In this document: positions 1,325 through 15,944 of the stretch, piece by piece
Layout of the letters: every line of letters begins with the position of its first letter
Position numbering within the stretch: the stretch's first letter is position 1
IMG/VR virus record: IMGVR_UViG_2529292919_000026
Length of the DNA stretch: 16,261 nt
Source of the DNA: a virus
Lineage: Duplodnaviria; Heunggongvirae; Uroviricota; Caudoviricetes
Strand: one strand, 5' to 3'
Program-made: the position numbers and the translations under genes
Notes under the pieces: generated by a model
Told to the model about the DNA's origin: nothing
What the model saw: the letters and a program-made list of their open reading frames with translations, nothing else
The model's database searches: none

Positions 1325-2388
1325 TACCCGTCCAGAAGAAGACATTTTCACTGGCTGGTATGTCGCCAAAATCCAGCAATATGACGGCAAAGTCAGGCAT
1401 TAATACAGCAGATACAAGCAAAGTTTATCATTTGCTGGTGGTCGGAACGGATGCCTTAACCATACCAGAAATCTCGGGCGATGATATTAGCATTGAGAAG
1501 GTCAGCGGCTGCGCCAGAAAATTTCTGGTCGTAGATGATGTCTTCCGCTCGCGTAGTGACTCCACAAAAACCTTCATCCGCGCGCGTGACGTTAACGAAA
1601 TGAGCGCGATGTACTGTGCATCTGGTGCTTCCAATAGCGAGTTTTCGGAGTCCATAAAAAAGAGCTTGCCGTTATGCGGCAACACGGTTTATGGTTATAA
1701 GGCACCTCATAAAACGGGTGCCGGGATTGGCGTCCTGGTAAATCGAATGGCGACATATGACGCGCCGAGCGTCTTTTTTTATGTCGTAGGTCTGACTCAC
1801 CCATTTTTTGGGCGTTGGTGTATAATCCAGCGCCTTTGTCAATCAATGGTGGCTCAGGCAGGGGCTTCTTCGGAAGCGCCGGTATCCATTCGAGCCGGTT
1901 ACGCCAACCCTGTCTGGGCTACCACCAGCGAAATTGGCGTTTCCGGTGGTAGCGTTACATGCTATCGAATGGAGGCTGCCACATGCTGGCTACTACCCCT
2001 ACCCAAAAACCGCAATTTATCTGGATTATCGCCGCAGTTCGCCGCGATTGCCCGACAATTACCGCCAGAATTCATCATATTGCTGCCGAGTCTGAACGCG
2101 ATGCTCGCCGTTCTCTGGTGCGCGATCACGTCTGCTTTTTTGCTGGTCGTATCCGCATGGAGGTGGCACATGATTAAAACCTACGATGTGCATATGGATC
2201 CCCTCGAACGCACAAGCCAGATCATCACACTGACAGAAGTGATTAACGACATTCTGGTGAGCAACTCTCCCTCACGAGACGAAAGACTGAAGGCGTTACT
2301 CGCGATATTGGATCTCGCCGTTCGTGACGTTCATTTCCTGCTGGAAGGTGGCGAAATGCCAGTAAAAACGGGGGCAACCAATGAATAA
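1321..2388 (+). CDS. hypothetical protein (355 aa)
   Basis: 355 codons without a stop in ~50% GC DNA is unlikely by chance. Start is coupled to the preceding gene by ATGA overlap. No recognisable domain. Contains a strong internal GGAGG-N5-ATG at 2160-2172 (see findings). Confidence 0.5.
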
Positions 2389-3658: not shown

Positions 3659-3742
3659 ATGATTACTAAAAATTTCCGACTGAATGCGCTGGCAAATAAG
3701 TATGCGTCAGCACTGTATAACCACATTACCTCCACCAGCGGC
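3659..3742 (+). pseudogene. N-terminal fragment (28 codons) of a small gene split by IS insertion
   Basis: GAGGA Shine-Dalgarno 7 nt upstream of ATG 3659. Reading frame MITKNFRLNALANKYASALYNHITSTSG runs into the IS left end. After removing the IS and one copy of the duplication the frame continues exactly into 5301-5558. Confidence 0.7.
3734..3742. repeat. left copy of 9-bp target-site duplication ACCAGCGGC
   Basis: Identical to 5292-5300. The last C is shared with the first base of the IS terminal repeat, so the junction is ambiguous by 1 nt. Confidence 0.75.
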
Positions 3743-3760
3743 TGTCTCTTATACACAAAT
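3742..3760 (+). repeat. IS left terminal inverted repeat (outside-end-like)
   Basis: CTGTCTCTTATACACAAAT, 17/19 match to Tn5 OE. Confidence 0.8.
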
Positions 3761-3906
3761 CCCCACCCGGGGATTTGTGATGTCTGTCAGTCTGCTTTAG
3801 GGGGACTCTTTCCATCCGGTAGTTTCCTTCCTCCCCGGCAGCGATTTTTTGAACTTTTTCCTCACCCGTTGATCTTCTCTTATATTTCATTTTCTTCGGG
3901 TCTGTT

Positions 3907-5280
3907 ATGGTACTTTCTGATTGTTATTCATGGGCTAACGAGCAGTTTGGACATGCCCGTCTCGGTGATCCGCGTCGTACACGACGCCTTGTGTCACTGG
4001 CCTCTTCTCTCGCTCAGCATGCAGGTCTTTCTATTGTGAAATCATCCCAGTCCACTGCTCAGGTTGAAGGTGCGTACCGCCTGATACGTAACCCGTCTGT
4101 GTCCCCGCAAGCCATTGCCGAAGCCGGATTTACCGCCACTGTAAGGGCATGTGAGGCTCATCCGCTGCTCCTCGCGCTGGAAGACACCACCACCATTAAC
4201 TTCAGTCACAGTACGGCATCTGATGACCTGGGGAATACCACCACTAACCCGAAGACGCGCGGGCTGCTGGCTCACTCTGTCCTGATGTACGCCCCCGACA
4301 GCGCCCTGCCAGTCGGTCTTATCGAACAGCAGCGCTGGAGTCGTGCCACGGACACCTACGGTGTTAAGCACCAGCGAAAAGAACGTCCCTATGAAGAAAA
4401 AGAAAGTTACCGCTGGCAGCAGGCTTCGGAGCGCATGGCCGAACGGCTGGGGGAGATACAGAAACGGGTAATCACTGTCTGTGACCGGGAAGCGGATATC
4501 TGGCATTACCTGCATTATAAAGTCAGCCACGGGCAGCGCTTCGTGGTGCGTGCAGCACAGAATCGCCGGCTGGAAGAAGCACCCGGCAAGCTCTTCGAAC
4601 TGCCGGAAGTCCTGGCAACCGCGGGAAGCCACACGCTGAATGTGATGCAAAAAGGCGGGCGGGCAGCCCGCCAGGCCCGGATGTTCATCAGTTACAGCGA
4701 AGTCAGCATAAAAAATCCCGACAACAGCGGCCAGGCGCTCCCGCTCACGTATGTCTGTTGCCGGGAGCAGGCAGAGGACGGCGCCTGCTGGCATCTGCTG
4801 ACGTCAGAAAAAGTGGCGAGTGCCGCCGATGCGCGACGTATCGTCAGCCATTACGAGCGACGCTGGCTGATAGAGGAATACCACAAGGCGTGGAAAAGTG
4901 GTGGTACATGTGTGGAATCGCTGCGAATGCAGACCCGGGATAACCTCGAGCGCATGGTGGTTATCAAGGCGTTTATCGCGGTGCGGGTGCTGGGCCTGCG
5001 GCAGGGCGGTATCAGTGAAGAAACACAAAATGACAGCTGTGAGAAAATACTGACGCCGACAGAGTGGAAACTGCTGTGGGTTAAGCTGGAAGGAAAACCG
5101 CTTCCGTCACAGATGCCGACACTGAAATGGGCCTGTCTGAAACTGGCGAAACTGGGGCGATGGCATGACAGCAAACGCACCGGTCGCCCCGGTTGGGTAG
5201 TCATGTGGGATGGCTGGTTCAGACTTCAGGATATGGTTGAGGGTTACCTGGTGATGAAGTCTCTTGATCAGGAGATCTGA
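3907..5280 (+). CDS. tnp: IS4-family DDE transposase, Tn5 Tnp-like (457 aa)
   Basis: Clear collinear similarity to Tn5 transposase: GDPRRT.RLV, EGAYR.IRNP.VS, L(A/L)(I/L)EDTT, VCDREADI, RFVVR, RW.IEE(F/Y)HKAWK(T/S)G and DNLERMV...A(V/I)R.L.LR blocks, including the catalytic D, D, E positions. Stop codon lies inside the right terminal repeat. Confidence 0.85.
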   Translation: MVLSDCYSWANEQFGHARLGDPRRTRRLVSLASSLAQHAGLSIVKSSQSTAQVEGAYRLIRNPSVSPQAIAEAGFTATVRACEAHPLLLALEDTTTINFSHSTASDDLGNTTTNPKTRGLLAHSVLMYAPDSALPVGLIEQQRWSRATDTYGVKHQRKERPYEEKESYRWQQASERMAERLGEIQKRVITVCDREADIWHYLHYKVSHGQRFVVRAAQNRRLEEAPGKLFELPEVLATAGSHTLNVMQKGGRAARQARMFISYSEVSIKNPDNSGQALPLTYVCCREQAEDGACWHLLTSEKVASAADARRIVSHYERRWLIEEYHKAWKSGGTCVESLRMQTRDNLERMVVIKAFIAVRVLGLRQGGISEETQNDSCEKILTPTEWKLLWVKLEGKPLPSQMPTLKWACLKLAKLGRWHDSKRTGRPGWVVMWDGWFRLQDMVEGYLVMKSLDQEI

Positions 5281-5558: not shown

Positions 5559-5922
5559 AAATGCAGAAATGGCGCTTAGCTCCGCAATCGGAGAGCAGGT
5601 GGCAAAGATTGCTGGTGCTGTGTGGATTCATAACCTTCATTCTACTGGTGAAGAGAAAATGGCAATTCAGACGCCAGAGGGACGCACTATTACTACATCT
5701 CTGAAGCCGTCAGATGTTTGTGATCTGATTTGCGCATTCATGTACCCAGCAATGAGGACTGTCCACGGCGATAAGTGGAAACTTGCGACAACCGCTGAAT
5801 TTGATATGTGGCTAAACAATGATGGCATGCTGACTGATTACGGAATAACCAAGTGGCAGATGCTGGTTAGCCATATCGCAAACGCTATAGACCACGTGGG
5901 GTACGGTGATGCGAAACATTGA
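5551..5922 (+). CDS. hypothetical protein (123 aa)
   Basis: GGAGG at 5541-5545, five nt before ATG 5551. Start overlaps the stop of the split gene (ATGCGTGA). Its 3' end overlaps the primase start. Confidence 0.55.
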   Translation: MRENAEMALSSAIGEQVAKIAGAVWIHNLHSTGEEKMAIQTPEGRTITTSLKPSDVCDLICAFMYPAMRTVHGDKWKLATTAEFDMWLNNDGMLTDYGITKWQMLVSHIANAIDHVGYGDAKH

Positions 5923-8665
5923 TCTTATCCGTCAGGTTATCAGTGCGTCTGAAAACAACTGGCCTCATGTGCTGGGCTGCCTGAACATAAATGTCCCTGA
6001 CTCTCCGCGCCGTCATGCTCCCTGCCCTGCATGTGGGGGCAAAGATCGATTCCGGTTCGATGACAACGGGCGCGGTAGCTTCATCTGTAATCAGTGCGGC
6101 GCTGGTGATGGGCTGGATTTAATTAAACGCGTAAATAACTGCGACACAACAGAGGCGGCGCTGCTTGCCGCTGATGTTCTGGGTATTGATTACCGGACAA
6201 CGGAAACACCAGAAGCCACCAGCCAGAAACGGGAACAACTGGAAACCGAGCGCCAGCAACGCGAACAGGAGCGCCTGAAAAGGGCGGAGAAGGACGAACA
6301 ACAAAGACGGGATACGTTTTCCCGTCAGTTTGATGACATGCGCAGAAAGGCTGTAAACGGCAAATCTGATTATCTGGTTGCGAAAGGGGTAGGTGATTTT
6401 ACATTCCCCGTGTTGCCCGATGGATCTCTGTTGCTGGCGCTGGTGGATAAATCCGGCGCAGTCACAGCAGCACAGACTATTACCTCACATGGTGAAAAAA
6501 GACTCCTGACAGGTTCAGCAAAGCGGGGGGCATATCACGCCATAAACGCACCAGAAACAACACAGAGCATCTTAATCGCAGAAGGGCTGGCAACGGCATT
6601 ATCTGCCCATTTAATTCGTCCAGAGGCGCTGACAGTGGCGGCGATTGATGCCGGGAACCTGTTATATGTCGCCCAGGTACTGCGGGATAAATTTCCTTCA
6701 GCACAAATCATCATTGCTGCGGATAACGACCACAGCGAAGGAAGACAAAACACGGGGAGAATAGCAGCAGAAAAAGCAGCTTTATCTGTTTCTGGATGGG
6801 TGGCATTACCCCCGACAGGTCACAAAGCAGACTGGAATGATTACCACCAAAAACACGGCATTAAATGCGCCACAGAAGCGTTCAATAAGTCAATGTACCA
6901 ACCACAGGGTAATGGCGTGAAACAGGAGCCACAGACCATTGAGGGAAGCGATTTTAAGGTTATGGATACCGACCCACTGAAACCAAGAATAGAAAGCCGC
7001 GAGGATGGTATTTATTGGGTATCTCCGAGAGCTGACAGCCAGAGTGGAGAAATCATCAATAACGAAAGCTGGTTATGTTCTCCGTTAAGCGTTATCGGTA
7101 CTGGCAGAGACGATAAAGACCAGTATCTCATTCTTCGCTGGCTGTCGTTTGGTTCTGAAACGCCGACAACCGCTGCCATTCCACTGGCTGATATTGGTGA
7201 ACGTGAAGGATGGCGCACACTTAAAGCTGGTGGGGTAAATGTCACGACCAAAAGCAGCCTCAGAGCAATACTGGCAGACTGGCTACAACGCAGTGGCTCT
7301 CGTGAATTGTGGCGTGTTGCTCATGCCACTGGCTGGCAATGCGGAGCGTACATCATGCCTGATGGGGAAATCATCGGAACACCTGAAAATCCTGTGCTGT
7401 TCAGCGGGAGAAGCTCAGCCGCAGCCGGATATACCGTCTCAGGGAGCGCGCAAAGCTGGCGTGATAACGTGGCGCGTCTGGCCTTTGGTAACTATTCAAT
7501 GATGACCGGGATCGGCGCAGCACTGGCAGCACCATTGATTGGGCTGGTGGGCGCTGACGGGTTCGGCATTCATTTCTATGAGCAGTCGAGCGCAGGTAAG
7601 ACCACCACGGCAAACGTGGCGAGCAGCTTATACGGCAACCCTGATTTACTGCGGCTGACGTGGTACGGAACCGCGCTGGGGCTGGCAAATGAGGCCGCCG
7701 CCCACAATGACGGACTAATGCCGCTTGATGAAGTTGGTCAGGGCGCTGATCCTGTCAGCGTTTCACAGTCTGCCTATGCGTTATTTAACGGTGTAGGGAA
7801 ACTGCAAGGCGCTAAAGATGGTGGAAACCGGGATCTAAAACGCTGGCGTACAGTGGCAATCAGCACCGGAGAAATGGATTTAGAAACATTTATCGCTACT
7901 TCCGGGCGAAAAACCAAAGCCGGGCAACTGGTGCGACTGCTGAATATTCCGTTGAGTAAAGCAGTACGCTTTCACGATTACCAGAACGGAAAACAGCACG
8001 CAGACGCACTGAAAGACGCTTACCAGCATCACCATGGCGCAGCCGGGCGTGAGTGGATTAAATGGCTGGCAGACCACCAGCAACAGGCTATTAAAACTGT
8101 TCGTGATTGCGAAAGCAGATGGAGAAGCCTGATCCCACCCGATTATGGTGAGCAGGTTCACCGTGTAGCCGCGCGATTTGCCATTCTGGAGGCCGCATTG
8201 TTGTTAGGCGAGGTTGTAACAGGCTGGGATGCTCAGACATGCCGTGATGCGATACAGCACAGCTATAACGCATGGTTGCGCGAGTTCGGCACAGGTAACA
8301 AAGAGCATCAGCAGATTATTGAACAAACGGAGGCATTTCTTAATGCCTATGGGCTTAGCCGTTTTGCACCATTTCCATACAGCCCGGCAGATTTGCCCAT
8401 CAAAGATTTAGCCGGATACCGTCAGCGTGGAGAACATGACGAAAGCCCAATGATTTTCTACACATTCCCGGCCACATTTGAAAAGGAGATCGCATGTGGT
8501 TTCAACGCAAAACAGTTTGCTGAAGTGTTGAAAAAAGCCGGGATGCTAACCCCACCAAACAGCGGTCGTGGATACCAAAGAAAATCACCACGTATTCAGG
8601 GACGACAAATAAACGTTTATGTACTCAATTACCAGCCAGGAGATTATAACTCATCTGAAGAATGA
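5909..8665 (+). CDS. primase, zinc-ribbon + Toprim + DUF927/P4-alpha-like NTP-binding domain (about 918 aa)
   Basis: N-terminal CPACGGKDRFRF...FICNQCG zinc ribbon; Toprim-like acidic motifs (ILIAEGLATA, IIIAADNDHSEG); P-loop-like EQSSAGKTT near residue 555. Immediately followed by an iteron array. ATG at 5909 is preferred over the GTG at 5906 reported by the track. Confidence 0.8.
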   Translation: MRNIDLIRQVISASENNWPHVLGCLNINVPDSPRRHAPCPACGGKDRFRFDDNGRGSFICNQCGAGDGLDLIKRVNNCDTTEAALLAADVLGIDYRTTETPEATSQKREQLETERQQREQERLKRAEKDEQQRRDTFSRQFDDMRRKAVNGKSDYLVAKGVGDFTFPVLPDGSLLLALVDKSGAVTAAQTITSHGEKRLLTGSAKRGAYHAINAPETTQSILIAEGLATALSAHLIRPEALTVAAIDAGNLLYVAQVLRDKFPSAQIIIAADNDHSEGRQNTGRIAAEKAALSVSGWVALPPTGHKADWNDYHQKHGIKCATEAFNKSMYQPQGNGVKQEPQTIEGSDFKVMDTDPLKPRIESREDGIYWVSPRADSQSGEIINNESWLCSPLSVIGTGRDDKDQYLILRWLSFGSETPTTAAIPLADIGEREGWRTLKAGGVNVTTKSSLRAILADWLQRSGSRELWRVAHATGWQCGAYIMPDGEIIGTPENPVLFSGRSSAAAGYTVSGSAQSWRDNVARLAFGNYSMMTGIGAALAAPLIGLVGADGFGIHFYEQSSAGKTTTANVASSLYGNPDLLRLTWYGTALGLANEAAAHNDGLMPLDEVGQGADPVSVSQSAYALFNGVGKLQGAKDGGNRDLKRWRTVAISTGEMDLETFIATSGRKTKAGQLVRLLNIPLSKAVRFHDYQNGKQHADALKDAYQHHHGAAGREWIKWLADHQQQAIKTVRDCESRWRSLIPPDYGEQVHRVAARFAILEAALLLGEVVTGWDAQTCRDAIQHSYNAWLREFGTGNKEHQQIIEQTEAFLNAYGLSRFAPFPYSPADLPIKDLAGYRQRGEHDESPMIFYTFPATFEKEIACGFNAKQFAEVLKKAGMLTPPNSGRGYQRKSPRIQGRQINVYVLNYQPGDYNSSEE

Positions 8666-8684
8666 GCTTCTTCATGTGCGTAGA

Positions 8685-8730
8685 AAAGGTGTTGGTTCAG
8701 TTGGTTCAGTTGGTTCAATTTGTAAAGAGT
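8685..8730 (+). repeat. 46-bp segment perfectly inverted-repeated at 15899-15944
   Basis: AAAAGGTGTTGGTTCAGTTGGTTCAGTTGGTTCAATTTGTAAAGAG is the exact reverse complement of 15899-15944. Confidence 0.9.
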
Positions 8731-8802
8731 ATTGTTTTATAAGGATTTTATTCTTTTTATTGAACCAACACTGAACCAACAACACGGTATTTTGAACCAA
8801 CA
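8692..8802. promoter_or_regulatory. iteron array, candidate replication origin (copy A)
   Basis: Three tandem GTTGGTTCA 9-mers (8692-8718), an AT-rich ~43-bp spacer, then three spaced inverted copies TGAACCAAC (8762-8770, 8773-8781, 8794-8802). Sits directly 3' of the primase gene. Confidence 0.65.
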
Positions 8803-8862
8803 CAATGTGACTGAATTGATGCGCACAACACCTGGCTGGCATCAGAGAGTGTTTTACGAGAC

Positions 8863-8883
8863 TTTCGTAAAATCCTGTGTACA
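8863..8883. promoter_or_regulatory. palindromic operator-like site TTTTACGA-N5-TCGTAAAA
   Basis: 8-bp perfect inverted arms seen directly in sequence. Confidence 0.4.
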
Positions 8884-8905
8884 AGGGCGTGACGTTTTTG
8901 AAAGT

Positions 8906-8922
8906 GAGCACTACGAAATTTT
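8906..8922. promoter_or_regulatory. palindromic operator-like site CTACGAAA-T-TTTCGTAG
   Basis: 17-bp near-perfect palindrome sharing the TTTCGTA half-site with the site 25 bp upstream. Confidence 0.4.
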
Positions 8923-9122
8923 CGTAGTTCAAAAAACAGCCTCTGAGAAGTTGTTATGCCTGTTCAGCAAACCATCCGCATAGCTGATCGCGAATCAAAT
9001 TACCAATGGAGCCAGAATCAAGGGCAGAACTGAAAAGCGCCTGCCGTGAAGAGTAATGCGATACCATAAATATAGTTTTTAGAGTCCATAAAAAACCTGT
9101 CAAAACCTGACACACAGAACGA

Positions 9123-9154
9123 TGCCACCAGCTACTGAGCGGTGGCATTTTTTT
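9123..9154 (+). terminator. rho-independent terminator (orphan, no upstream + strand CDS)
   Basis: Stem TGCCACC/GGTGGCA with 11-nt loop, followed by seven T residues (9148-9154). Confidence 0.55.
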
Positions 9155-9249
9155 GTGCTATTTGTTTCATATTTTGCAATTACGATGATGAATATTGCGA
9201 TTTGTGAAACTATAATAACTGTTGTTTTATACAGTTCTAAGGGGGCGTT

Positions 9250-9411
9250 ATGGCTATTTCAGTAAATCCGGTATTGATAAGTGAGAAGCAAATGGAAGCG
9301 ATAAAGAAAATTCAGGAAGAGCAGCGTAAAAAATCAGGAATTGGAGTAGCGCCAACTCTGCATGAAATTGCACGAGGGTTAATAGATAAGGCGCTGGCAG
9401 GCTGTATGTGA
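9250..9411 (+). CDS. small hypothetical protein (53 aa), below the track's length cut-off
   Basis: AAGGGGG Shine-Dalgarno 6 nt upstream of ATG 9250; TATAAT hexamer at 9211-9216. Sequence MAISVNPVLISEKQMEAIKKIQEEQRKKSGIGVAPTLHEIARGLIDKALAGCM, possibly a small DNA-binding protein. Confidence 0.45.
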   Translation: MAISVNPVLISEKQMEAIKKIQEEQRKKSGIGVAPTLHEIARGLIDKALAGCM

Positions 9412-9427
9412 AAATGGATGGCATCGC

Positions 9428-9889
9428 ATGGAACTAAAATTTATTGATAACCCTGTGCGATTACAGGCCTTTCTTAACGAGCCAGGCAATACCGAAAATA
9501 TTGTTGAGCCGGGGCACACGTACTACATCAAGCCTGATGCGGTATATCTCGGCATCTACGAAGGATTAGTGCTGGCTGGCGTTCATGAAGTGCGTAACTT
9601 CTGGCATAGCGTTGTTGAATGCCATGCGGTGTACGACCCCGGATTCCGTGGTGAATATGCACTGCAAGGGCATCGATTATTCTGCAAATGGCTTCTCGAA
9701 AACTCACCATTCCTTAACAGCATCACCATGGTTCCTGACACCACCAAATACGGACGGGCAATTATCCGTTTGCTTGGCGCTACCCGTGTTGGTCACCTTG
9801 ATGATGCTTATATCAGATGTGGTAAACCCGTCGGCGTAACGCTTTATCAGTTAACTCGGCAACAATATAAGGAATTCAGCGAATGTTAA
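9428..9889 (+). CDS. protein at the gene-14 position of a P22-like ejection-protein cluster (153 aa)
   Basis: Assigned by position and size only: it directly precedes three coupled ejection-protein-like genes, and its stop overlaps the next start. Confidence 0.35.
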   Translation: MELKFIDNPVRLQAFLNEPGNTENIVEPGHTYYIKPDAVYLGIYEGLVLAGVHEVRNFWHSVVECHAVYDPGFRGEYALQGHRLFCKWLLENSPFLNSITMVPDTTKYGRAIIRLLGATRVGHLDDAYIRCGKPVGVTLYQLTRQQYKEFSEC

Positions 9890-10560
9890 TTACCCATATA
9901 GCTCATAAACATCTCAATCGTGCCGTATACGAAAAAGGCGGTGATGGTGGTGCCTCTAAAGCTCAGGCGAAGGCCCAGCAGCAGGCAATTGATTTGCAGC
10001 GCGAGCAGTGGAATACGGTGATGAATAATCTCAAGCCGTATGCAGAAGTCGGATTGCCTGCTTTACAACAACTGCAAGGACTGATGACTCTGGAAGGGCA
10101 GAATAAAGCCGCGAATGATTTCTTTGGTTCTGGTTTATATAAAACACAGGCAGATCAGGCCCGTTATCAGAACCTTGTCTCAGCAGAAGCTACCGGGGGG
10201 CTTGGCTCAACAGCTACCAGTAACCAGTTATCTTCCATTGCGCCCATGCTTTATAACAATTGGCTCAGTGGGCAAATGCAAAATTATGGAAACCTGCTAA
10301 ATGTCGGGATGAATGCGGCATCAGGGCAGGCAACGGCAGGGCAAAACTACGCCAATAATACCGGACAACTCTTGCAGGGGCTTGGCGCTATTCGTGCAGG
10401 TCAGGCGCAGCAGCCATCCAGTCTTGCGCGTGGTATTGGTGGGGCAGCATCAGGCGCTTTAGCGGGTGCGCAACTTGGTTCCGTTGTTCCTGGAATAGGA
10501 ACTGCGGCCGGCGCTATTGGTGGTGGGCTTATTGGTCTTGTTGGGGGGCTTGGATTCTAA
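9883..10560 (+). CDS. P22 gp7-like DNA ejection (internal virion) protein (225 aa)
   Basis: Size close to P22 gp7 (about 229 aa from memory); EKGGDGG segment near the N terminus; Gln/Ala/Gly-rich low-complexity body; glycine-zipper hydrophobic C terminus GGLIGLVGGLGF. First of three coupled genes in P22 order. Confidence 0.55.
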   Translation: MLITHIAHKHLNRAVYEKGGDGGASKAQAKAQQQAIDLQREQWNTVMNNLKPYAEVGLPALQQLQGLMTLEGQNKAANDFFGSGLYKTQADQARYQNLVSAEATGGLGSTATSNQLSSIAPMLYNNWLSGQMQNYGNLLNVGMNAASGQATAGQNYANNTGQLLQGLGAIRAGQAQQPSSLARGIGGAASGALAGAQLGSVVPGIGTAAGAIGGGLIGLVGGLGF

Positions 10561-11981
10561 TGGCGACATGGCAACTTGGCGGGCTGCCTAGCATGGCACC
10601 GCAAAATGATAATGCTCCTCGTTCTTCCGTTCCTCAGCCTGTGCAGTATCAGCAGCAGCCAAACGTAGGTTTAATGGCGCTACAGGGGCTAAGAGGCGTT
10701 GCTGAGATTAATCAGCAGGCACGTCAACAACAGCGTAAATCAGAGTTTCAGAAAGCATATGCCGGGGCTTTTGAGTCTGGAGACAGAAACAAAATGCGCA
10801 GTCTTATTTCTGAGTATCCAGAAGAATTTGAAAGCGTTCAGAAAGGGATGGGCTTTATTGATGACGACCAGAGAAATTCTATTGGTCATCTTGCGACTAG
10901 TGCTCAAATCGCATCTTCGCTCGGAACTGGGGCATTTGGAAAATTCATAGCAGATAACGAAGATGAAATGCGTCGCTTGGGAATTTCTCCTGAGTCTGTT
11001 GCCGAAATGCATGTTAATGATCCACAGGGATTCCAGCGGCTTGCTGGTAGTATGGCACTGTTTTCTCTCGGTCATGAGAAGTATTTCGATATCAAAGATC
11101 AAATGGAAGGTCGGGATATTGAGCGAGGCAGGCTGGCAGAGACAATCCGCAGCAATCAGGCTGGCGAAGCACTTCAGGCGAGAGGGCAGGATATTAGCCG
11201 AGCAAATGCGTTAACGTCAGCATATGCACCAACAGCAGCAATGCAGAATTACAATCAGTACGCTCAAATGTTAAAGGCGGATCCAGAGGGGGCGGCGGCA
11301 TTTGCGGCAGCGGCTGGAATTAATACAAACGCCAAAAAATTAATGAGTGTTAGAGAAAACGATGATGGCACTGTCACAAAATACTACACAGACGGAAGTG
11401 AAGAGCAGGGAAAACTAAACCAGCCAATATCTGGAGATGGGTTTCGTCCAATAGCTTTGCCAACAGCCCAAAAGATCATGGAAAAGTCGCCAGAAGGGGC
11501 TAAAAAAGCTGCTGGATTTGCATACAGGGTTAGGGATGCTCTTGATTCAATAGATACACTGAAAGACCAGCTTAGCCCACAGCGAGTGGCGATCATTAAT
11601 AATGCTTTGGGTAATGGGACGCTGGCTAACTTAACGCTCAGCCCAACAGAGCAGCAATACGTTGTTAATGCTAATGACGCAATAATGGCAATACTCCGTC
11701 AGGAAACAGGGGCAGCTATCGTACCTGCTGAAATGTCAAAATATTATCAAATGTATTTCCCTCAGCCTGGCGACTCCACAAAAACCATTGATACCAAGCG
11801 CCGGAAGATGGAAAACCAGTTCAATTCGCTGAAAGCTGCTTCTGGTCGAGCTTATGATGCTTTGCGGGTTATTTCAGCAGTTGACAGAGGAACGTCTTCT
11901 TCGTCGCAGACATTGCCGCAATCTGAGCAGGTATCACAGCCAGCAGCCAGCAGTAACTTTTCTTCACTATGGGGTGATTAA
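10560..11981 (+). CDS. P22 gp20-like DNA ejection protein (473 aa)
   Basis: Size close to P22 gp20 (about 471 aa from memory). Start overlaps the upstream stop (TAATGG) and the stop overlaps the next start. Confidence 0.55.
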   Translation: MATWQLGGLPSMAPQNDNAPRSSVPQPVQYQQQPNVGLMALQGLRGVAEINQQARQQQRKSEFQKAYAGAFESGDRNKMRSLISEYPEEFESVQKGMGFIDDDQRNSIGHLATSAQIASSLGTGAFGKFIADNEDEMRRLGISPESVAEMHVNDPQGFQRLAGSMALFSLGHEKYFDIKDQMEGRDIERGRLAETIRSNQAGEALQARGQDISRANALTSAYAPTAAMQNYNQYAQMLKADPEGAAAFAAAAGINTNAKKLMSVRENDDGTVTKYYTDGSEEQGKLNQPISGDGFRPIALPTAQKIMEKSPEGAKKAAGFAYRVRDALDSIDTLKDQLSPQRVAIINNALGNGTLANLTLSPTEQQYVVNANDAIMAILRQETGAAIVPAEMSKYYQMYFPQPGDSTKTIDTKRRKMENQFNSLKAASGRAYDALRVISAVDRGTSSSSQTLPQSEQVSQPAASSNFSSLWGD

Positions 11982-14086
11982 TGGCTAAAGCATGGAAAGA
12001 TGTTATCGCCTCTCCACAGTATCAGGCGTTAGCACCAGAACAAAAAGCGCAGGCTCAGGAGCAATACTTCAATGAAGTCGTTGCCCCGCAAGCCGGAGAA
12101 AGTGTAGAGCAGGCTAAGCAGGCTTTTTATGCTGCCTATCCACTACCATCAACGAATGAAATAGACCGATCCCAATCAGCAACTCAAAATATTCAACATA
12201 CATCATCTGATAATTCTCTTGCGTCAGGGTATGCAAAGTTAGCTACTCAGCAAAGAGAGGGGCTTGAGCGTTCAGCAGAACAGGGAGCCAGTCTTGGGGC
12301 TGCGATGCGCGATGCTATAACAGGCGAAAGCCGAATGACTTCAGAGATGGAGAGACTGCAAAATGTCGCCTCTGCCCCAGAATTGAACTCACTAAGCATG
12401 GATGCCCTAAAGGCTGGATGGTCCCAACTTTTCGGCTCTGACGCGTCTCAGGAAAAGATTCTTCAGGGAATGGGGGCGACATTAAGGCAGGATGAGAAGG
12501 GGAATACTATCGTTTCTCTGCCATCAGGTGATTATGCCCTGAACAAGCCGGGTTTATCACCGCAAGACCTGACTTCGTTTCTTGCTAATGCGTTGGCGTT
12601 TACACCAGCGGGCAGGGCTGGAACGGTGCTTGGTGCCATAGGAAAATCAGCAGCTACAGATTTAGCACTACAGGGAGCCACCAGCCTTGCTGGTGGAGAA
12701 GATATTGATCCGTTACAAACGGTAATTTCTGCTGGCATTGGTGGTATTGGTAAGGGGCTGGAAAATACAGCGAGTGCGGTTTCGAGGGCTGTTCGTGGTG
12801 ATATGTCGCCTGAAGCAAAGGCTGCTGTCGACTTTGCATCGGAAAGAAATCTGCCGTTAATGACCAGTGACATGCTGAAAGATAAAACCTTTATGCAGAG
12901 TCAGGCTCAGACATTAGGCGAAAGAGTTCCTTTTTTTGGAACCGGTAAGAATCGGCTGAATCAACAACAAGCACGAGAAAATTTAGTCAGAACATTTAGC
13001 GATGGTCTGGGTGGCATTTCTGATAAACAGCTTTATGAATCTGCGACTAAAGGGCAACAAAAATTCATTGAGGCAGCAGGAAAGCGATATAACCGCATAA
13101 TTGACGCTATGGGGGATACCCCTGTCGATCTCTCAAACACGGTAAAAGCTATCGACAATCAGATTGCCGTGTTAAGCCGCCCGGGCAAATCTCAGGATAG
13201 AGCCGCGGTAAAAGTCTTGCAGCAATTTAAAGACGATATCACCAGCGGACCAAATGACCTGCGCCTGGCGAGGGAAAACAGAACCGATCTTCGAAAGCGA
13301 TTTATTGCGTCATCTGACACTGTTGATAAAGATACGCTCCAGAAAGCCAGCGATATTATCTACAAGGCATATACGGCGGATATGAAAAAAGCCGTAGCCA
13401 AAAATCTTGGAGCAGACGAAGCCATTAATATGGCAAGGGTTGATCGCTCATGGTCTAAATTCAATGACATGATGGGAAGAACGCGCGTTCAAAAGGCAAT
13501 AGCCAGCGGCAAGGCCACGCCTGAGGATGTAACAAAACTCGTTTTTAGCCAAAGCCCATCAGAACGTTCTCAGCTTTACAGGCTTCTGGATGACAATGGT
13601 AGGCAAAACGCACGAGCAGCCATAGTTCAGAATGCTGTAGATAAGGCGACTGATCCGTCTGGAAATATCAGTGTTGAGAAGTTTATTAATGCGTTACACC
13701 GGAACAGGAAGCAATCAGCAACTTTCTTTAAAGGCGTACATGGGAAGGAACTGGACGGCGTTATTAAATACCTCAACGATACAAGACACGCGGCAAAAGC
13801 GAACGTTCAAAACTTAAATGGTCAGCAGCTTTATGGATTGTTAGTTGGTGGTGGCATCATAAACGCAGCAGTATTAGCGGGGATGCTAAAAACGGCTGCG
13901 TTTGTTGTTCCTGCTGCTGGTGCCGTAGGCGGAGCAGCGAAGGCATACGAAACCCCTGTTATACGAAATGCCTTGTTACGTCTGGCAAATACGCCAAAAG
14001 GTAGCACAGCATATGACAGAGCGATCAGTACGGTCACACAATCGCTCACCAGAGTCGCACAGGCATCACAAAAAGAAGCTCAATAA
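11981..14086 (+). CDS. P22 gp16-like DNA ejection protein (701 aa)
   Basis: Third coupled gene; large Ala/Gln-rich protein with hydrophobic Gly/Ala-rich segment near the C terminus (GGGIINAAVLAGMLKTAAFVVPAAGAVGGAA). Longer than P22 gp16 (about 609 aa from memory). Confidence 0.5.
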   Translation: MAKAWKDVIASPQYQALAPEQKAQAQEQYFNEVVAPQAGESVEQAKQAFYAAYPLPSTNEIDRSQSATQNIQHTSSDNSLASGYAKLATQQREGLERSAEQGASLGAAMRDAITGESRMTSEMERLQNVASAPELNSLSMDALKAGWSQLFGSDASQEKILQGMGATLRQDEKGNTIVSLPSGDYALNKPGLSPQDLTSFLANALAFTPAGRAGTVLGAIGKSAATDLALQGATSLAGGEDIDPLQTVISAGIGGIGKGLENTASAVSRAVRGDMSPEAKAAVDFASERNLPLMTSDMLKDKTFMQSQAQTLGERVPFFGTGKNRLNQQQARENLVRTFSDGLGGISDKQLYESATKGQQKFIEAAGKRYNRIIDAMGDTPVDLSNTVKAIDNQIAVLSRPGKSQDRAAVKVLQQFKDDITSGPNDLRLARENRTDLRKRFIASSDTVDKDTLQKASDIIYKAYTADMKKAVAKNLGADEAINMARVDRSWSKFNDMMGRTRVQKAIASGKATPEDVTKLVFSQSPSERSQLYRLLDDNGRQNARAAIVQNAVDKATDPSGNISVEKFINALHRNRKQSATFFKGVHGKELDGVIKYLNDTRHAAKANVQNLNGQQLYGLLVGGGIINAAVLAGMLKTAAFVVPAAGAVGGAAKAYETPVIRNALLRLANTPKGSTAYDRAISTVTQSLTRVAQASQKEAQ

Positions 14087-14090
14087 CTGG

Positions 14091-14113
14091 TTAGCCATGG
14101 ATGGCTAATTTTT
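14091..14113 (+). terminator. intrinsic terminator between convergent genes
   Basis: Perfect inverted repeat TTAGCCAT-GG-ATGGCTAA followed by TTTTT. The stop codon of the minus-strand membrane-protein gene lies inside the stem. Confidence 0.55.
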
Positions 14114-14524
14114 GTTCTTTGCTCTCATCCATAGGTAAAGAAGGGAAAGAACAAGACAAAAAACAGAGAATAGATAACCTACCTCATATGGTGCGCCAAA
14201 AAAATTAGCCATTGATACGGGCAAAAAAGCTGAAGCGATCAAAATTGAAAGGCAAAAAATAAGCCCAGTAATATAGTTTATTAAATTCTTAAATGAGAAA
14301 CGTTTTGCTTGATTTACGGTCTTAACGAACGATCGCTTAACGACGGATAAAAGCAAATAGATGGCGACAGTTGCTAATGCCCCTTTCCACCAGTCTGGAT
14401 ATAGTTTTGCGACAATCAGACCAAGGAAAACCATGATGACAGCCTGAGCATTCACACCAACCCTCCCTTTAGCTTTGTTTAGAATGGCAATCATCATATA
14501 TCCAAGACATGGCATTTGGTACAT
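14105..14524 (-). CDS. small multi-pass inner-membrane protein at the sieA position (superinfection-exclusion-like)
   Basis: Several hydrophobic helices (VIMVFLGLIVAKL, ALATVAIYLLLSVV, ITGLIFCLSILIASAFL, LFSVFCLVLSLLYLW). Convergent with and immediately after the gp16-like gene, as sieA is in P22-like phages. Start uncertain: a strong AAAGGGAGGG sits 5 nt before an in-frame GTG at 14455. Confidence 0.5.
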   Translation of the reverse strand: MYQMPCLGYMMIAILNKAKGRVGVNAQAVIMVFLGLIVAKLYPDWWKGALATVAIYLLLSVVKRSFVKTVNQAKRFSFKNLINYITGLIFCLSILIASAFLPVSMANFFGAPYEVGYLFSVFCLVLSLLYLWMRAKNKN

Positions 14525-14564
14525 AGCTTGGGTCGGGATTTCAAATCCGATCCCCGTTGATGGG

Positions 14565-14960
14565 GCCGTTACAGTACGCGCATATCCTCTTTATGTGAAA
14601 CAGGAAGATTTTTCTGATATCACTGCCACAGCAAAACACCAATTTCGTGACCAGTACGCGCGCGAGGGGTATCAGTTGCAAAAAATTTTGCAACTGCGTC
14701 CGACCAGTACGCACACGATGGCGGGGAGCACCATAAAACTGTTCTCTACATAAGACAGAGTGGTGGTGATGTGTTGATTATCGGCGTATATGCGCACAGG
14801 ACGCGCTATGACGATGTTTTATGCGGGTACACCAATCACATGTATCTGGTGTGATCAATCGCGTTACATGACATCTCATGTTGTGCTGGTGATTATCACG
14901 ACGTTCTGAATCTGGCCTTTGCCTGATATTTTGCGACAAGTACGCGCGCGTAGCATCGAC
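14565..14960. repeat. cluster of short repeats: AGTACGCGCGCG-type motifs with adjacent TTTTGCGAC-type motifs
   Basis: AGTACGC(G/A)C(G/A)CG at 14572, 14653, 14705 and 14939; TTTTGC(G/A)AC at 14405, 14686 and 14929; perfect 12-bp palindrome TACGCGCGCGTA at 14941-14952. Confidence 0.6.
14673..14696. promoter_or_regulatory. palindromic operator-like site CAGTTGCAAAA-AA-TTTTGCAACTG
   Basis: 11-bp perfect inverted arms seen directly in sequence, in the noncoding region upstream of the minus-strand membrane-protein gene. Confidence 0.45.
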
Positions 14961-14978
14961 AGCATACACATTGGATAT

Positions 14979-15179
14979 TCATTTTGTGACCAATGCGATA
15001 AGTAGCGGGATAAGAATTGATAAAATCAACAGGACGATGATCCACTTTTGATTCTCGTCCATCTTATCTGCTAGGCGACGCTCCATTCCGTGCATATCAC
15101 CGCGAATGGCAATCATCTCATTGCGAACATCCGAGAAGTGGTTGGCTTGATGTTCAATGTGTGGCGTTCTGCCTTTCAT
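14979..15179 (-). CDS. small protein with C-terminal transmembrane helix (66 aa)
   Basis: GGTGAGGA Shine-Dalgarno 7 nt upstream of ATG on the minus strand. C-terminal WIIVLLILSILIPLLIALV hydrophobic segment. Confidence 0.5.
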   Translation of the reverse strand: MKGRTPHIEHQANHFSDVRNEMIAIRGDMHGMERRLADKMDENQKWIIVLLILSILIPLLIALVTK

Positions 15180-15258
15180 GTCTGATCCTCACCTATCGTC
15201 ACCACCTGATGGTGTATAAAGGTATTAGCCCAAGCAGCTTTCCAATGGGCACTCATGT

Positions 15259-15714
15259 TTATACGCTGACCTTACAATCAATCACCGCTTTTAACTTTTC
15301 AGCATTGCTTCCCTGACGCTTCCACGCGCTGTAAATATCTTTATCCCACGCTTTACCAGCTTTTGTTTGATAGCCTGCTTCATTGATCCGTTCAGCTATC
15401 ACACGCCCATTATCAAATCCCTGTTGGATGGTATCGGCAATGATCTTTATAACTGCCGTTTCGTTATATGGTTTTGGTGGGATGTTCGGCTTTCCGGCAA
15501 TAAGCGACGCAGCGGCTTTTTCCATGCGCTCCACCAGCCCAAGCATTCGTGAATCAATAGACTTTTCCGGCTGCCCCAGCTTCATGCGAATCGCATCAAC
15601 AAGCCAAGAGGTTTTATCTCCTCCAGAAGCGAGAACAGACCGATTAAACTCATCCTGCAATTCAGATGGGATGCGGAACGCGATCAGATTAGATTTGCTC
15701 ATTGCAAAGACCAT
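15259..15714 (-). CDS. ribbon-helix-helix (Arc/Mnt/CopG-type) DNA-binding regulator with C-terminal extension
   Basis: N-terminal SNLIAFRIPSELQDEFNRSVLASGGDKTSWLVDAIRMKL fits the beta-strand/helix/helix pattern of RHH repressors (compare the FNLRWP strand of P22 Arc/Mnt). True start may be the second ATG (15702). Confidence 0.5.
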   Translation of the reverse strand: MVFAMSKSNLIAFRIPSELQDEFNRSVLASGGDKTSWLVDAIRMKLGQPEKSIDSRMLGLVERMEKAAASLIAGKPNIPPKPYNETAVIKIIADTIQQGFDNGRVIAERINEAGYQTKAGKAWDKDIYSAWKRQGSNAEKLKAVIDCKVSV

Positions 15715-15816
15715 ATCAGTGAGTAATATCCATACAGTATACCACTGTATAACACTGTTATACGCTCAAATATCAGCCAGAAAATAACAGACCAATCACA
15801 AATCTATCGCTGTGTT

Positions 15817-15937
15817 GTTGGTTCAGAGCTGGGCTGTGTTGGTTCAAAATGAGTTGATGTTGGTTCAATATTTTAGAAAAAACACAATAAAAACAACGCT
15901 CTTTACAAATTGAACCAACTGAACCAACTGAACCAAC
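15817..15937. promoter_or_regulatory. iteron array, candidate replication origin (copy B, inverted relative to copy A)
   Basis: Three spaced GTTGGTTCA 9-mers (15817-15825, 15838-15846, 15859-15867), an AT-rich spacer, then three tandem TGAACCAAC (15911-15937). Confidence 0.6.
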
Positions 15938-15944
15938 ACCTTTT
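15899..15944 (-). repeat. second copy of the 46-bp perfect inverted repeat
   Basis: Exact reverse complement of 8685-8730. Confidence 0.9.

What the first reader, a model, noticed from the sequence alone, without database searches (positions are those of the whole stretch)
8685..15944. Two inverted copies of the iteron origin bracket a 7-kb P22-like cassette
Copy A (8685-8802) and copy B (15817-15944) are inverted relative to each other. Their outer 46 bp are identical, while the inner spacers and iteron spacing have diverged. Everything between them is the P22-like block (ejection-protein genes, sieA-position membrane protein, RHH regulator); everything outside is satellite-like (primase on one side, PerC-like on the other). 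This could mean (a) cargo captured into a duplicated origin, (b) a segment invertible by recombination between the 46-bp repeats, or (c) a recombination scar joining a P22-like prophage to a primase-based element. I do not recognise this arrangement as a described element type.
Basis: partly seen in the sequence, partly recalled or inferred. Interest (0 to 1): 0.85.

Follow-up and report, generated by a model that had tools for sequence, protein, structure and literature searches.

The report
Satellite replication origin split by cargo
The two inverted iteron blocks are the two halves of a naturally palindromic replication origin of an E. coli phage-satellite island, pushed 7 kb apart by a block of P22-type DNA-ejection genes; this is a new layout of a known kind of origin, not an invertible switch or a prophage scar.

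Summary
TGAACCAAC occurs 12 times in the window, six at 8691-8801 and six at 15817-15937. Each site is a PICI-type origin unit, and the outer 46 bp are identical in inverted orientation. The window is a ~17.5-kb integrase/AlpA/Pri-Rep island (yicC-dinD site), and its junctions occur in ~550-590 of 5,426 complete E. coli genomes. In 80 loci with primase relatives, 25 carry both units side by side (~250-300 bp) directly after the primase. Six lineages with switched iteron sequences switch them in both units, together with the primase C-terminal ~100 residues. At least 18 loci have the units 4.6-10.6 kb apart around cargo: P22-type genes 14-7-20-16 here, and tail lysin, baseplate hub and small terminase elsewhere. 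So the inverted pair is ancestral and the cargo sits at its centre. Inversion was not seen (0 of 552 genomes). A prophage-fusion scar is unlikely, because the cassette has diverged in step with the backbone. In site B the iterons are invariant while the spacers vary, but single-unit relatives exist, so the second unit is facultative. Whether both units fire is not tested. This is a new variant of a known kind, of moderate interest.

The parts
5906..8665 (+). Pri-Rep replicase: Zn-ribbon, Toprim primase, DUF927 (MCM-like helicase) and a C-terminal ~100-aa segment that co-varies with iteron sequence
   Evidence: Pfam and PHROGs hits. PDB matches to SaPI protein 8TCH and helicase Cch 5DGK. C-terminal divergence tracks iteron switches.
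8691..8717 (-). Site A outer tight array: 3 x TGAACCAAC at 9-bp phasing, 26 bp after the primase stop codon
   Evidence: The same position is occupied in primase relatives of 60-99% identity.
8718..8760 (.). Site A AT-rich core (putative melting region)
   Evidence: Read directly from the sequence. Same design as described for PICI origins (PMC6092414).
8761..8801 (+). Site A inner spaced iterons (3 x TGAACCAAC, spacing 11 and 21 bp)
8832..8840 (+). CTGGCTGGC motif. It marks the centre of unsplit origins and stays on the A side of the cargo.
   Evidence: Seen next to the A-unit iterons in L020, L026, L037, L036, L065, L040, L053 and also L005.
8848..9249 (+). Conserved non-coding leader of the cargo module, with palindromes at 8853-8873 and 8911-8927 and a terminator-like hairpin at 9131-9146
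   Evidence: 93% identical in L005 despite its different replicase. Terminator scan. No Rfam family and no phage similarity.
9250..14086 (+). Cargo: small ORF (9250-9411), P22 gp14-like DUF2824 (9428-9889), gp7-like (9883-10560), gp20-like (10560-11981), gp16-like (11981-14086)
   Evidence: Pfam and PHROGs. Patches of 86-96% nucleotide identity to P22-like and Sf6-like phages.
14105..15714 (-). Three reverse-strand island genes: a 139-aa protein with ~4 hydrophobic helices, a 66-aa protein, and a 151-aa protein with an RHH-looking N-terminus. They are not P22-derived.
   Evidence: Translations. No phage homologs. No Pfam or PADLOC hits. The 151-aa gene is present in cassette-less relatives.
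15817..15867 (-). Site B inner spaced iterons (3 x TGAACCAAC, spacing 21 and 21 bp)
   Evidence: Iterons are invariant while the spacers vary among 9 distinct E. coli-type sequences.
15868..15910 (.). Site B AT-rich core with the conserved signature AAAACAACGCTCTTTACAAATT
   Evidence: The signature is found in B units of L026, L046, L040, L053, L071, L002, L003 and L005.
15911..15937 (+). Site B outer tight array (3 x TGAACCAAC), 37 bp upstream of the PerC start codon
15974..16261 (+). PerC-family regulator, the last gene of the island
   Evidence: Pfam PF06069, E = 3e-33. dinD follows ~700 bp later in L001.

Best explanation
The window is most of a PICI-type phage satellite island. Its Pri-Rep protein recognises TGAACCAAC iterons through its C-terminal domain. 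The native origin of this replicase family is a large imperfect palindrome made of two inverted units. The full layout is: outer tight triple array, AT-rich core, inner spaced iterons, central spacer, inner spaced iterons, core, outer tight triple array. In this lineage the satellite's phage-interaction cargo lies in the central spacer. That cargo comprises homologs of P22 genes 14, 7, 20 and 16, plus a small membrane protein and regulators. As a result the two units sit 7.1 kb apart and appear as inverted origin copies bracketing a cassette. Each half is still a complete iteron/AT-rich/iteron unit, so after helper induction and excision Pri-Rep most likely binds both. Either each unit fires as an origin, or unit B acts as an auxiliary Rep-binding site that cooperates with A by looping. 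What is shown: the anatomy, the family-wide adjacency of the units, the co-variation of iterons in both units with the Rep C-terminus, the recurrence of splitting around different cargo, and selective conservation of the B iterons. What is inferred: Rep binding, melting at the AT cores, and firing or looping of both units.
For: Iteron clusters lie directly 3' of the primase in relatives of 60-99% identity. Adjacent A and B units occur ~60 nt apart in L026, with B's signature sequence, and comparable 10-12-iteron double clusters occur in 25 loci. Six switched specificities (TGAACCGA, TGAACCAC, AGACAACA, TAACCCGT, TGAACCCG, GAACCACG) appear in both units of each lineage. The primase C-terminal ~100 residues diverge specifically in those lineages; for example, L036 is 90-100% identical to L014 over residues 330-800 but 57-65% identical at the end. 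Split A...B pairs, 4.6-10.6 kb apart, bracket unrelated cargo (SSB, ProQ, SLT tail lysin, baseplate hub, Sf6-like terS) in other clades. Split, unsplit and single states are interleaved on the primase tree. In site B the three spaced iterons are invariant (0 of 27 positions) while the spacers between them vary. L084 mirrors an unusual TGAGGCAAC variant in both of its units. The B-to-PerC order and direction match those in unsplit relatives. Each unit fits the published PICI origin design of two iteron sets flanking an AT-rich region (PMC6092414).
Against: About a dozen relatives with a full 10 kb of downstream sequence have only the proximal unit, and L064 has a decayed B, so the second unit is not essential. 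L005 keeps site B although its replicase was swapped for a DUF5906 type with different iterons, so B can persist without a cognate Rep, at least over short times. Identity between A and B within a locus is not clearly higher than between loci. In L020-type unsplit origins the right unit has a GC-rich rather than AT-rich core, so it may not always be a firing origin. No binding or replication data exist.
Confidence: 0.65

Rival explanations
1. Site B is not an origin. It is a Rep-binding control element, acting either as an operator for the downstream gene (PerC here, SSB in unsplit relatives) or as a copy-number control locus that titrates or handcuffs Rep, like incA of P1 or incC of F.
For: B's tight array always abuts the start of the next gene: 37 bp before the PerC ATG here, and ~50 bp before SSB in L020, L021, L022, L037 and L036. 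The second unit is dispensable in some lineages. Some right-hand units lack an AT-rich core. Iterons are conserved while spacers vary, which fits any Rep-binding role.
Against: In the window B has a full AT-rich core flanked by iterons in both orientations, the same anatomy as A. No sigma-70-like promoter was detected in or next to B by the consensus scan. Nothing was measured.
Confidence: 0.2
2. Site B is a functionless relic of a rearrangement that moved the cargo (or B-PerC), retained only because the event is recent.
For: L005 keeps B with a non-cognate replicase, and it has lost one iteron there. Single-unit relatives exist and L064 has a decayed B.
Against: Split B units with intact architecture recur in several clades of 67-99% primase identity. 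B iterons are invariant while neighbouring spacers have diverged. Both units switch specificity together in unsplit lineages.
Confidence: 0.1
3. The 46-55-bp inverted repeats make the 7-kb segment invertible, a flip-flop that changes cassette orientation or expression.
For: Perfect 46-bp inverted identity is long enough for occasional RecA-dependent recombination (general knowledge).
Against: 0 of 552 complete E. coli genomes carry the chimeric junction expected after inversion. All IMG/VR relatives have the cassette collinear with the primase. No invertase gene is present.
Confidence: 0.03
4. The arrangement is a scar of fusion between a P22-like prophage remnant and a primase-based element, or site B belongs to a second, neighbouring element.
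For: The cassette has the P22 gene order 14-7-20-16, and patches reach 86-96% nucleotide identity to real P22-like and Sf6-like phages.
Against: Cassette and backbone show equal divergence from L036/L038. The same island occurs at the yicC-dinD and thrW sites. There is one integrase and no other P22 genes. The flanking reverse-strand genes have no phage homologs. B-PerC has the same order and direction as in unsplit relatives. There is no sharp GC boundary.
Confidence: 0.02

Closest known systems
PICI / SaPI replication module (Pri-Rep followed by an ori made of two iteron sets flanking an AT-rich region; Fillol-Salom et al. 2018, PMC6092414)
   Same: The island has an integrase, AlpA, a fused primase and MCM-like Rep, and an ori immediately 3' of the replicase gene. 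Each unit has iterons on both sides of an AT-rich core, and phage-interaction genes lie downstream.
   Different: The origin is a pair of inverted units rather than one, and here the pair is separated by 7.1 kb of cargo. The cargo is a set of P22-type ejection-protein genes, not the capsid-size or terS/Rpp functions described for PICIs. No paper describing either feature turned up in the searchable library.
Satellite phage P4 ori / crr (bipartite origin; the alpha primase-helicase binds the same iterons at two sites about 4.5 kb apart) - recalled from established literature (Flensburg & Calendar 1987; Ziegelin & Lanka 1995, the latter listed in PMC6092414 reference 41)
   Same: A satellite whose primase-helicase has cognate repeats at two separated loci on a small replicon, one of them next to the replicase gene.
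   Different: The replicase family differs: DUF927/MCM-like here, not the P4 alpha D5/DUF5906 type. Here both sites are complete ori-like units in inverted orientation, and they are adjacent in many relatives. In P4 both sites are required, whereas here single-unit relatives exist. L005, a sibling island with a DUF5906 replicase, does have two clusters of its own iterons ~1.1 kb apart.
Iteron plasmids with auxiliary iteron clusters (P1 incC/incA, F incB/incC, R6K gamma with distant alpha/beta origins) - from general knowledge
   Same: Two clusters of the same Rep-binding iterons at a distance on one replicon. The second cluster can control replication by looping or handcuffing, or can serve as an alternative origin.
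   Different: In those plasmids the clusters bracket the rep gene or lie within the replication region, not around a phage-derived cargo module. No control function has been shown here.
Phage P22 / Sf6 genes 14-7-20-16 (ejection or 'pilot' proteins and their assembly factor)
   Same: Same four families in the same order (PF11039, PF25688, PF16928, phrog_770), with patches of high nucleotide identity to real phages.
   Different: They sit in a 17.5-kb satellite island with no coat, portal, terminase, tail or lysis genes.

Membership tests
PICI-type phage satellite (Gram-negative) | Tyrosine integrase at one end and site-specific chromosomal insertion | tested here: met
   L001 has an integrase next to yicC, and the island ends before dinD. 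A sibling island sits at tRNA-Thr. The integrase lies outside the window.
PICI-type phage satellite (Gram-negative) | AlpA-family regulator upstream of the replication module | tested here: met
   The 67-aa HTH protein in L001 hits PF05930 Phage_AlpA, E = 2e-8. It lies just outside the window.
PICI-type phage satellite (Gram-negative) | Primase/Rep replicase followed by its origin | tested here: met
   Zn-ribbon, Toprim and DUF927 domains. SaPI protein 8TCH and Cch 5DGK match the DUF927 half. The iterons start 26 bp after the stop codon.
PICI-type phage satellite (Gram-negative) | [quoted passage not shown] | tested here: met
   Met twice, at 8691-8801 and at 15817-15937. Design as described in PMC6092414.
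PICI-type phage satellite (Gram-negative) | Small size and lack of most phage structural and lysis genes | tested here: met
   About 17.5 kb from integrase to PerC. The only virion-related genes are the gp14, 7, 20 and 16 homologs.
PICI-type phage satellite (Gram-negative) | Packaging hijack function (terS, Rpp or a helper cos/pac site) | tested here: inconclusive
   No terS or Rpp family was found among the ORFs scanned. cos/pac sites were not searched for. Other clades of the same primase family carry an Sf6-like terS.
PICI-type phage satellite (Gram-negative) | Induction, replication and transfer dependent on a helper phage | not testable with these tools
   Needs experiments. A P22-like or Sf6-like podophage helper is inferred from the cassette only.
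P4-type bipartite origin (ori + crr) | Same iteron at two separated sites on the replicon | tested here: met
   Six exact TGAACCAAC copies at each of two sites 7.1 kb apart.
P4-type bipartite origin (ori + crr) | P4 alpha-type (D5 / DUF5906) primase-helicase and P4 genes (sid, delta, psu) | tested here: not met
   The replicase is Toprim + DUF927. No sid, delta or psu appears in the RefSeq annotation or in the Pfam scans.
P4-type bipartite origin (ori + crr) | Both sites required in cis for replication | not testable with these tools
   Comparative data argue against a strict requirement, because single-unit relatives exist.
Invertible DNA segment | Both orientations present in the population | tested here: not met
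   The chimeric junction query found 0 of 552 genomes with the inverted junction.
Invertible DNA segment | Adjacent site-specific invertase | tested here: not met
   No recombinase other than the island integrase and an IS transposase.
P22-like prophage or prophage remnant | Other P22 late or immunity genes (coat, portal, tailspike, sieA, mnt/arc/ant) next to genes 14-16 | tested here: not met
   None annotated. The genes in the sieA/immI position have no homolog in 50,697 phage genomes.

The most novel reading that the evidence does not exclude
The central spacer of the palindromic double origin could be a dedicated cargo bay. The two conserved, Rep-bound origin units would then act as fixed flanks between which satellites exchange helper-specific hijack modules by homologous recombination (P22-type ejection proteins in one clade; tail lysin, baseplate hub and terS in another). 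Placing the module between two firing origins would give it the earliest and highest copy number after induction, which would help satellite-encoded ejection proteins out-compete the helper's for incorporation into virions.
Probability: 0.2. Interest if true: 0.75.

Novelty: new variant of a known kind. Interest (0 to 1): 0.5.

Why it matters
The result turns an odd-looking repeat pair into a general rule for a large satellite family: a Pri-Rep origin built as two inverted units that can be adjacent or kilobases apart with cargo between them. The window's own island type has its junctions in roughly one in ten complete E. coli genomes. This matters in three ways. First, annotation tools that expect a single ori after pri-rep will mis-place island modules or mistake split origins for two elements. 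Second, it gives a clean natural experiment on iteron-Rep specificity, with seven iteron variants paired with a ~100-residue C-terminal segment. Third, it highlights satellites that carry their own P22-type ejection proteins. I found no description of such a hijacking strategy in the literature I could search, and it could affect which cells satellite-loaded particles can inject.

Tried and rejected
1. A Q-antiterminated late-promoter leader (PR'/qut-like) between site A and the cassette: a distant blastn of 8805-9430 against all phages gave only three short irrelevant hits, so I dropped it.
2. A known RNA in the leader or origin: Rfam at E <= 1 returned only spurious plant miRNA matches caused by the palindromic origin.
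3. Concerted evolution of the split A and B arms: identity of A to rc(B) within a locus (40-53 of 57) is not consistently higher than between loci, so I make no claim beyond L084's mirrored variant.
4. A compositional boundary inside versus outside: GC is 0.41-0.53 inside and 0.46-0.60 outside, with the highest values over the IS, and there is no sharp step.
5. att direct repeats at the island ends in L001: none was convincing.
6. Defence-system assignment for the reverse-strand genes and PerC: no PADLOC hits.
7. Structure-based identification of the 151-aa protein: no significant PDB sequence match. The RHH call rests only on the sequence pattern.
8. Literature on satellites with P22 ejection genes or split PICI origins: six searches found nothing relevant. 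One search failed on term length, and an open-access P4 ori/crr description was not found.
9. A sigma-70 promoter for PerC inside site B: none was found by the consensus scan.


Full report
1. OBSERVATION.
The repeat finder reports an inverted pair at 8684-8738 / 15890-15944 (55 nt, 96% complementary) plus inner matches. The exactly identical stretch is 46 bp, 8684-8729 against 15899-15944. The iteron TGAACCAAC occurs 12 times in the window, six at each site and nowhere else. With one mismatch allowed there are 17 matches against 3.8 expected, and 0 of 200 shuffles reach that count.

Each site has the same anatomy:
- three contiguous iterons at 9-bp phasing on the outside;
- a ~40-bp AT-rich core;
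- three spaced iterons in the opposite orientation on the inside, with spacing 11/21 bp in A and 21/21 bp in B.

2. WHAT THE WINDOW IS.
The window matches E. coli chromosomes over its whole length: 163 genomes have at least 80% coverage. In strain 755 it is a ~17.5-kb island between yicC and dinD. Its gene order is integrase, AlpA-type HTH, AntA/B, DUF4222, Ash, several small genes, primase, site A, cargo, site B, PerC. A sibling island sits at tRNA-Thr. The A and B junctions are each found in ~550-590 of 5,426 complete genomes.

The primase (5906-8665) has Zn-ribbon, Toprim and DUF927 domains. Its DUF927 half matches a SaPI "pathogenicity island protein" (8TCH) and the MCM-like helicase Cch (5DGK). 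It is therefore a fused Pri-Rep of the PICI/SaPI kind. [quoted passage not shown]

Between the sites lie homologs of P22 genes 14 (DUF2824), 7, 20 and 16. Three reverse-strand genes follow.
- The 139-aa product has about four hydrophobic helices.
- The 151-aa product has an RHH-like N-terminal pattern.
- Neither has any homolog in 50,697 phage genomes.
- The 151-aa gene occurs in relatives without the cassette.
So these three genes are island genes, not P22 genes.

3. THE DECISIVE COMPARISON.
I fetched 80 IMG/VR loci encoding primase relatives of 52-99% identity, with 10-kb flanks. For each locus I derived the iteron from the DNA after the primase.

(i) In relatives of 60-99% identity an iteron cluster lies directly 3' of the gene.

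(ii) In 25 loci the cluster is double, with 8-12 iterons over ~160-310 bp. In L026 it is plainly an A-like unit followed ~60 nt later by a B-like unit that includes B's signature AAAACAACGATCTTTACAAATT and an outward-facing tight array. The two tight arrays are always the outermost elements and are always inverted.

(iii) Six lineages have switched iteron sequence (TGAACCGA, TGAACCAC, AGACAACA, TAACCCGT, TGAACCCG, GAACCACG). In each of them both units carry the new sequence. The primase diverges specifically in its last ~100 residues in these lineages. For example, L036 is 90-100% identical to L014 over residues ~330-800 but only 57-65% identical at the C-terminus. Both units are therefore matched to the Rep C-terminal domain.

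(iv) At least 18 loci, counting the window, have the units split by 4.6-10.6 kb. Outside the window's clade the cargo is different: SSB, ProQ/FinO, an SLT lytic tail protein, a baseplate hub and an Sf6-type small terminase.

(v) Split, unsplit and single-unit states are interleaved on a primase tree.

(vi) In unsplit islands B is followed by SSB and then PerC. In split islands B sits at the right end of the island. B-PerC in the window keeps the ancestral order and direction.

Inversion. A chimeric query mimicking the recombinant junction found no place covering at least 80% of the query in any of 552 matching genomes. All relatives have the cassette collinear with the primase.

Prophage scar. 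Between the window and L036/L038 the backbone is ~74% identical and the cassette ~68-72% identical, which points to long co-descent. In those two loci the cassette lies downstream of an unsplit origin, SSB and PerC, so the cassette does not need the bracket. Patches of 86-96% identity to real P22-like and Sf6-like phages indicate continuing exchange with phages rather than a single capture. GC shows no sharp boundary.

Cargo in a duplicated origin. This reading is supported, with one amendment: the duplication is the family's native origin design.

5. IS SITE B FUNCTIONAL?
For function:
- Among nine distinct E. coli-type B sequences, the three spaced iterons are invariant (0 of 27 positions) while the spacers between them vary heavily. 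The only change in an iteron is the loss of one whole unit in L005. Overall 10 of 54 iteron positions and 56 of 131 other positions vary (Fisher p = 0.002).
- L084 mirrors an unusual TGAGGCAAC repeat in both of its units.

Against necessity:
- About a dozen relatives with a full 10 kb downstream have no B, and L064 has a decayed one.
- L005, a sibling island whose replicase was replaced by a DUF5906 type with its own GGTACAGG-type repeats, still carries B upstream of PerC.

I conclude that B is a selected but facultative Rep-binding unit. Whether it fires, loops to A, or regulates the adjacent gene is not resolved.

6. MECHANISM (INFERRED).
After helper induction and excision, Pri-Rep binds the iterons of both units through its C-terminal domain, melts an AT-rich core, loads its MCM-like helicase and primes. 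With two complete units the circle has two potential start sites in mirror orientation, with the cargo on the shorter arc between them.

The main rival is that B serves as a Rep-responsive operator or copy-control locus. Its tight array is 37 bp from the PerC ATG, and in unsplit relatives it sits ~50 bp from SSB.

7. COMPARISON WITH KNOWN SYSTEMS.
The island passes the sequence-testable PICI criteria. The exceptions are an identified packaging function, which is inconclusive, and helper dependence, which cannot be tested here.

The two-site iteron layout works like P4 ori/crr, or like auxiliary iteron loci of P1, F and R6K (recalled from the literature). It is not a member of those systems, because the replicase family differs and both sites are full ori-like units that are adjacent in many relatives.

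I found no paper describing a split or palindromic PICI origin, or satellites carrying P22-type ejection genes.

8. VERDICT.
The feature is real and the repeat is homologous. It is best explained as a cargo-split, natively two-unit satellite origin, a new variant of a known kind. Interest is moderate. The architecture and the ejection-gene cargo would interest satellite specialists, but the replication logic is an extension of known iteron origins.

Noticed in passing
window 1702-1779 and 1842-1929 (+): Rfam gathering-level hits to isrK sRNA (67 bits) and C4 antisense RNA (79.5 bits). Both lie inside the long ORF annotated as 'ash family protein' and just upstream of an Icd-like ORF (1959-2177). 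This is a P1 immI-like c4-icd module inside the satellite, next to an AntA/B gene.
   Followed up: partly
window 3659-5280: This segment is absent from the closest genome (strain 755). It encodes a 457-aa Tn5/IS4-type transposase (PF14706, PF01609, PF02281), so it is an IS insertion into the island backbone.
   Followed up: yes
L005 10666-10800 and 11800-11910 (E. coli SEC470): A sibling island in which the DUF927 Pri-Rep and site A are replaced by a DUF5906 (P4 alpha-like) replicase. That replicase has its own GGTACAGG / CCTGTACCACC repeats in two clusters ~1.1 kb apart, bracketing two small genes. The TGAACCAAC site B upstream of PerC is retained. This indicates a replication-module swap, and it is a second replicase type with a bipartite repeat layout.
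   Followed up: partly
window 9428-14086, and the family as a whole: A chromosomal satellite family carrying its own P22-type gp14, gp7, gp20 and gp16 genes, with patches of 86-96% nucleotide identity to phages such as Sf6 and vB_EcoP-720R6. I found no description of satellites encoding ejection proteins in the searchable literature.
   Followed up: partly
L046 9555-16905 (also L045, L055, L060, L062): Another clade of the same primase family carries, between its split origin units, SSB, a ProQ/FinO protein, an SLT-domain lytic tail protein, a baseplate-hub protein and an Sf6-like small terminase. This is a different helper-hijack module in the same position.
   Followed up: partly
window 8853-8873, 8911-8927, 9064-9092, 9131-9146: The ~400-bp non-coding leader of the cassette is conserved even in islands with a different replicase. 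It contains two perfect palindromes (TTTTACGA-GACTT-TCGTAAAA and CTACGAAA-T-TTTCGTAG) and a terminator-like hairpin. It also contains a 22-29-nt repeat (AGTTTTTAGAGTCCATAAAAAA) shared with the region just upstream of isrK at 1630-1658. This may be a common regulator site or a small RNA.
   Followed up: partly
window 8832-8840; L020, L026, L036, L037, L065, L040, L053, L005: A CTGGCTGGC / CTGGCAGGC motif lies just inside the A-unit iterons in nearly all lineages. It occurs even after the unrelated DUF5906-type repeats in L005. Its function is unknown; it could be a host-factor site.
   Followed up: no
L084 14511-15626: The B unit is followed immediately by a tyrosine-integrase-like ORF. This suggests a second island integrated in tandem right after the first.
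   Followed up: no
window 14105-14524 (-) and the equivalent position in other genomes: The slot after the gp16 homolog is variable between islands: a small 4-helix membrane protein here, an Abi-family protein or other genes elsewhere. It looks like an accessory or defence hotspot, though there were no PADLOC hits for the window's genes.
   Followed up: partly
L009 and L013 versus the window: Islands with 99%-identical primases carry variant cargo: there is no detectable gp14 or gp7 homolog, and gp20 is only ~81% identical. The cargo between the two origin units therefore appears to be exchanged independently of the replicase.
   Followed up: no
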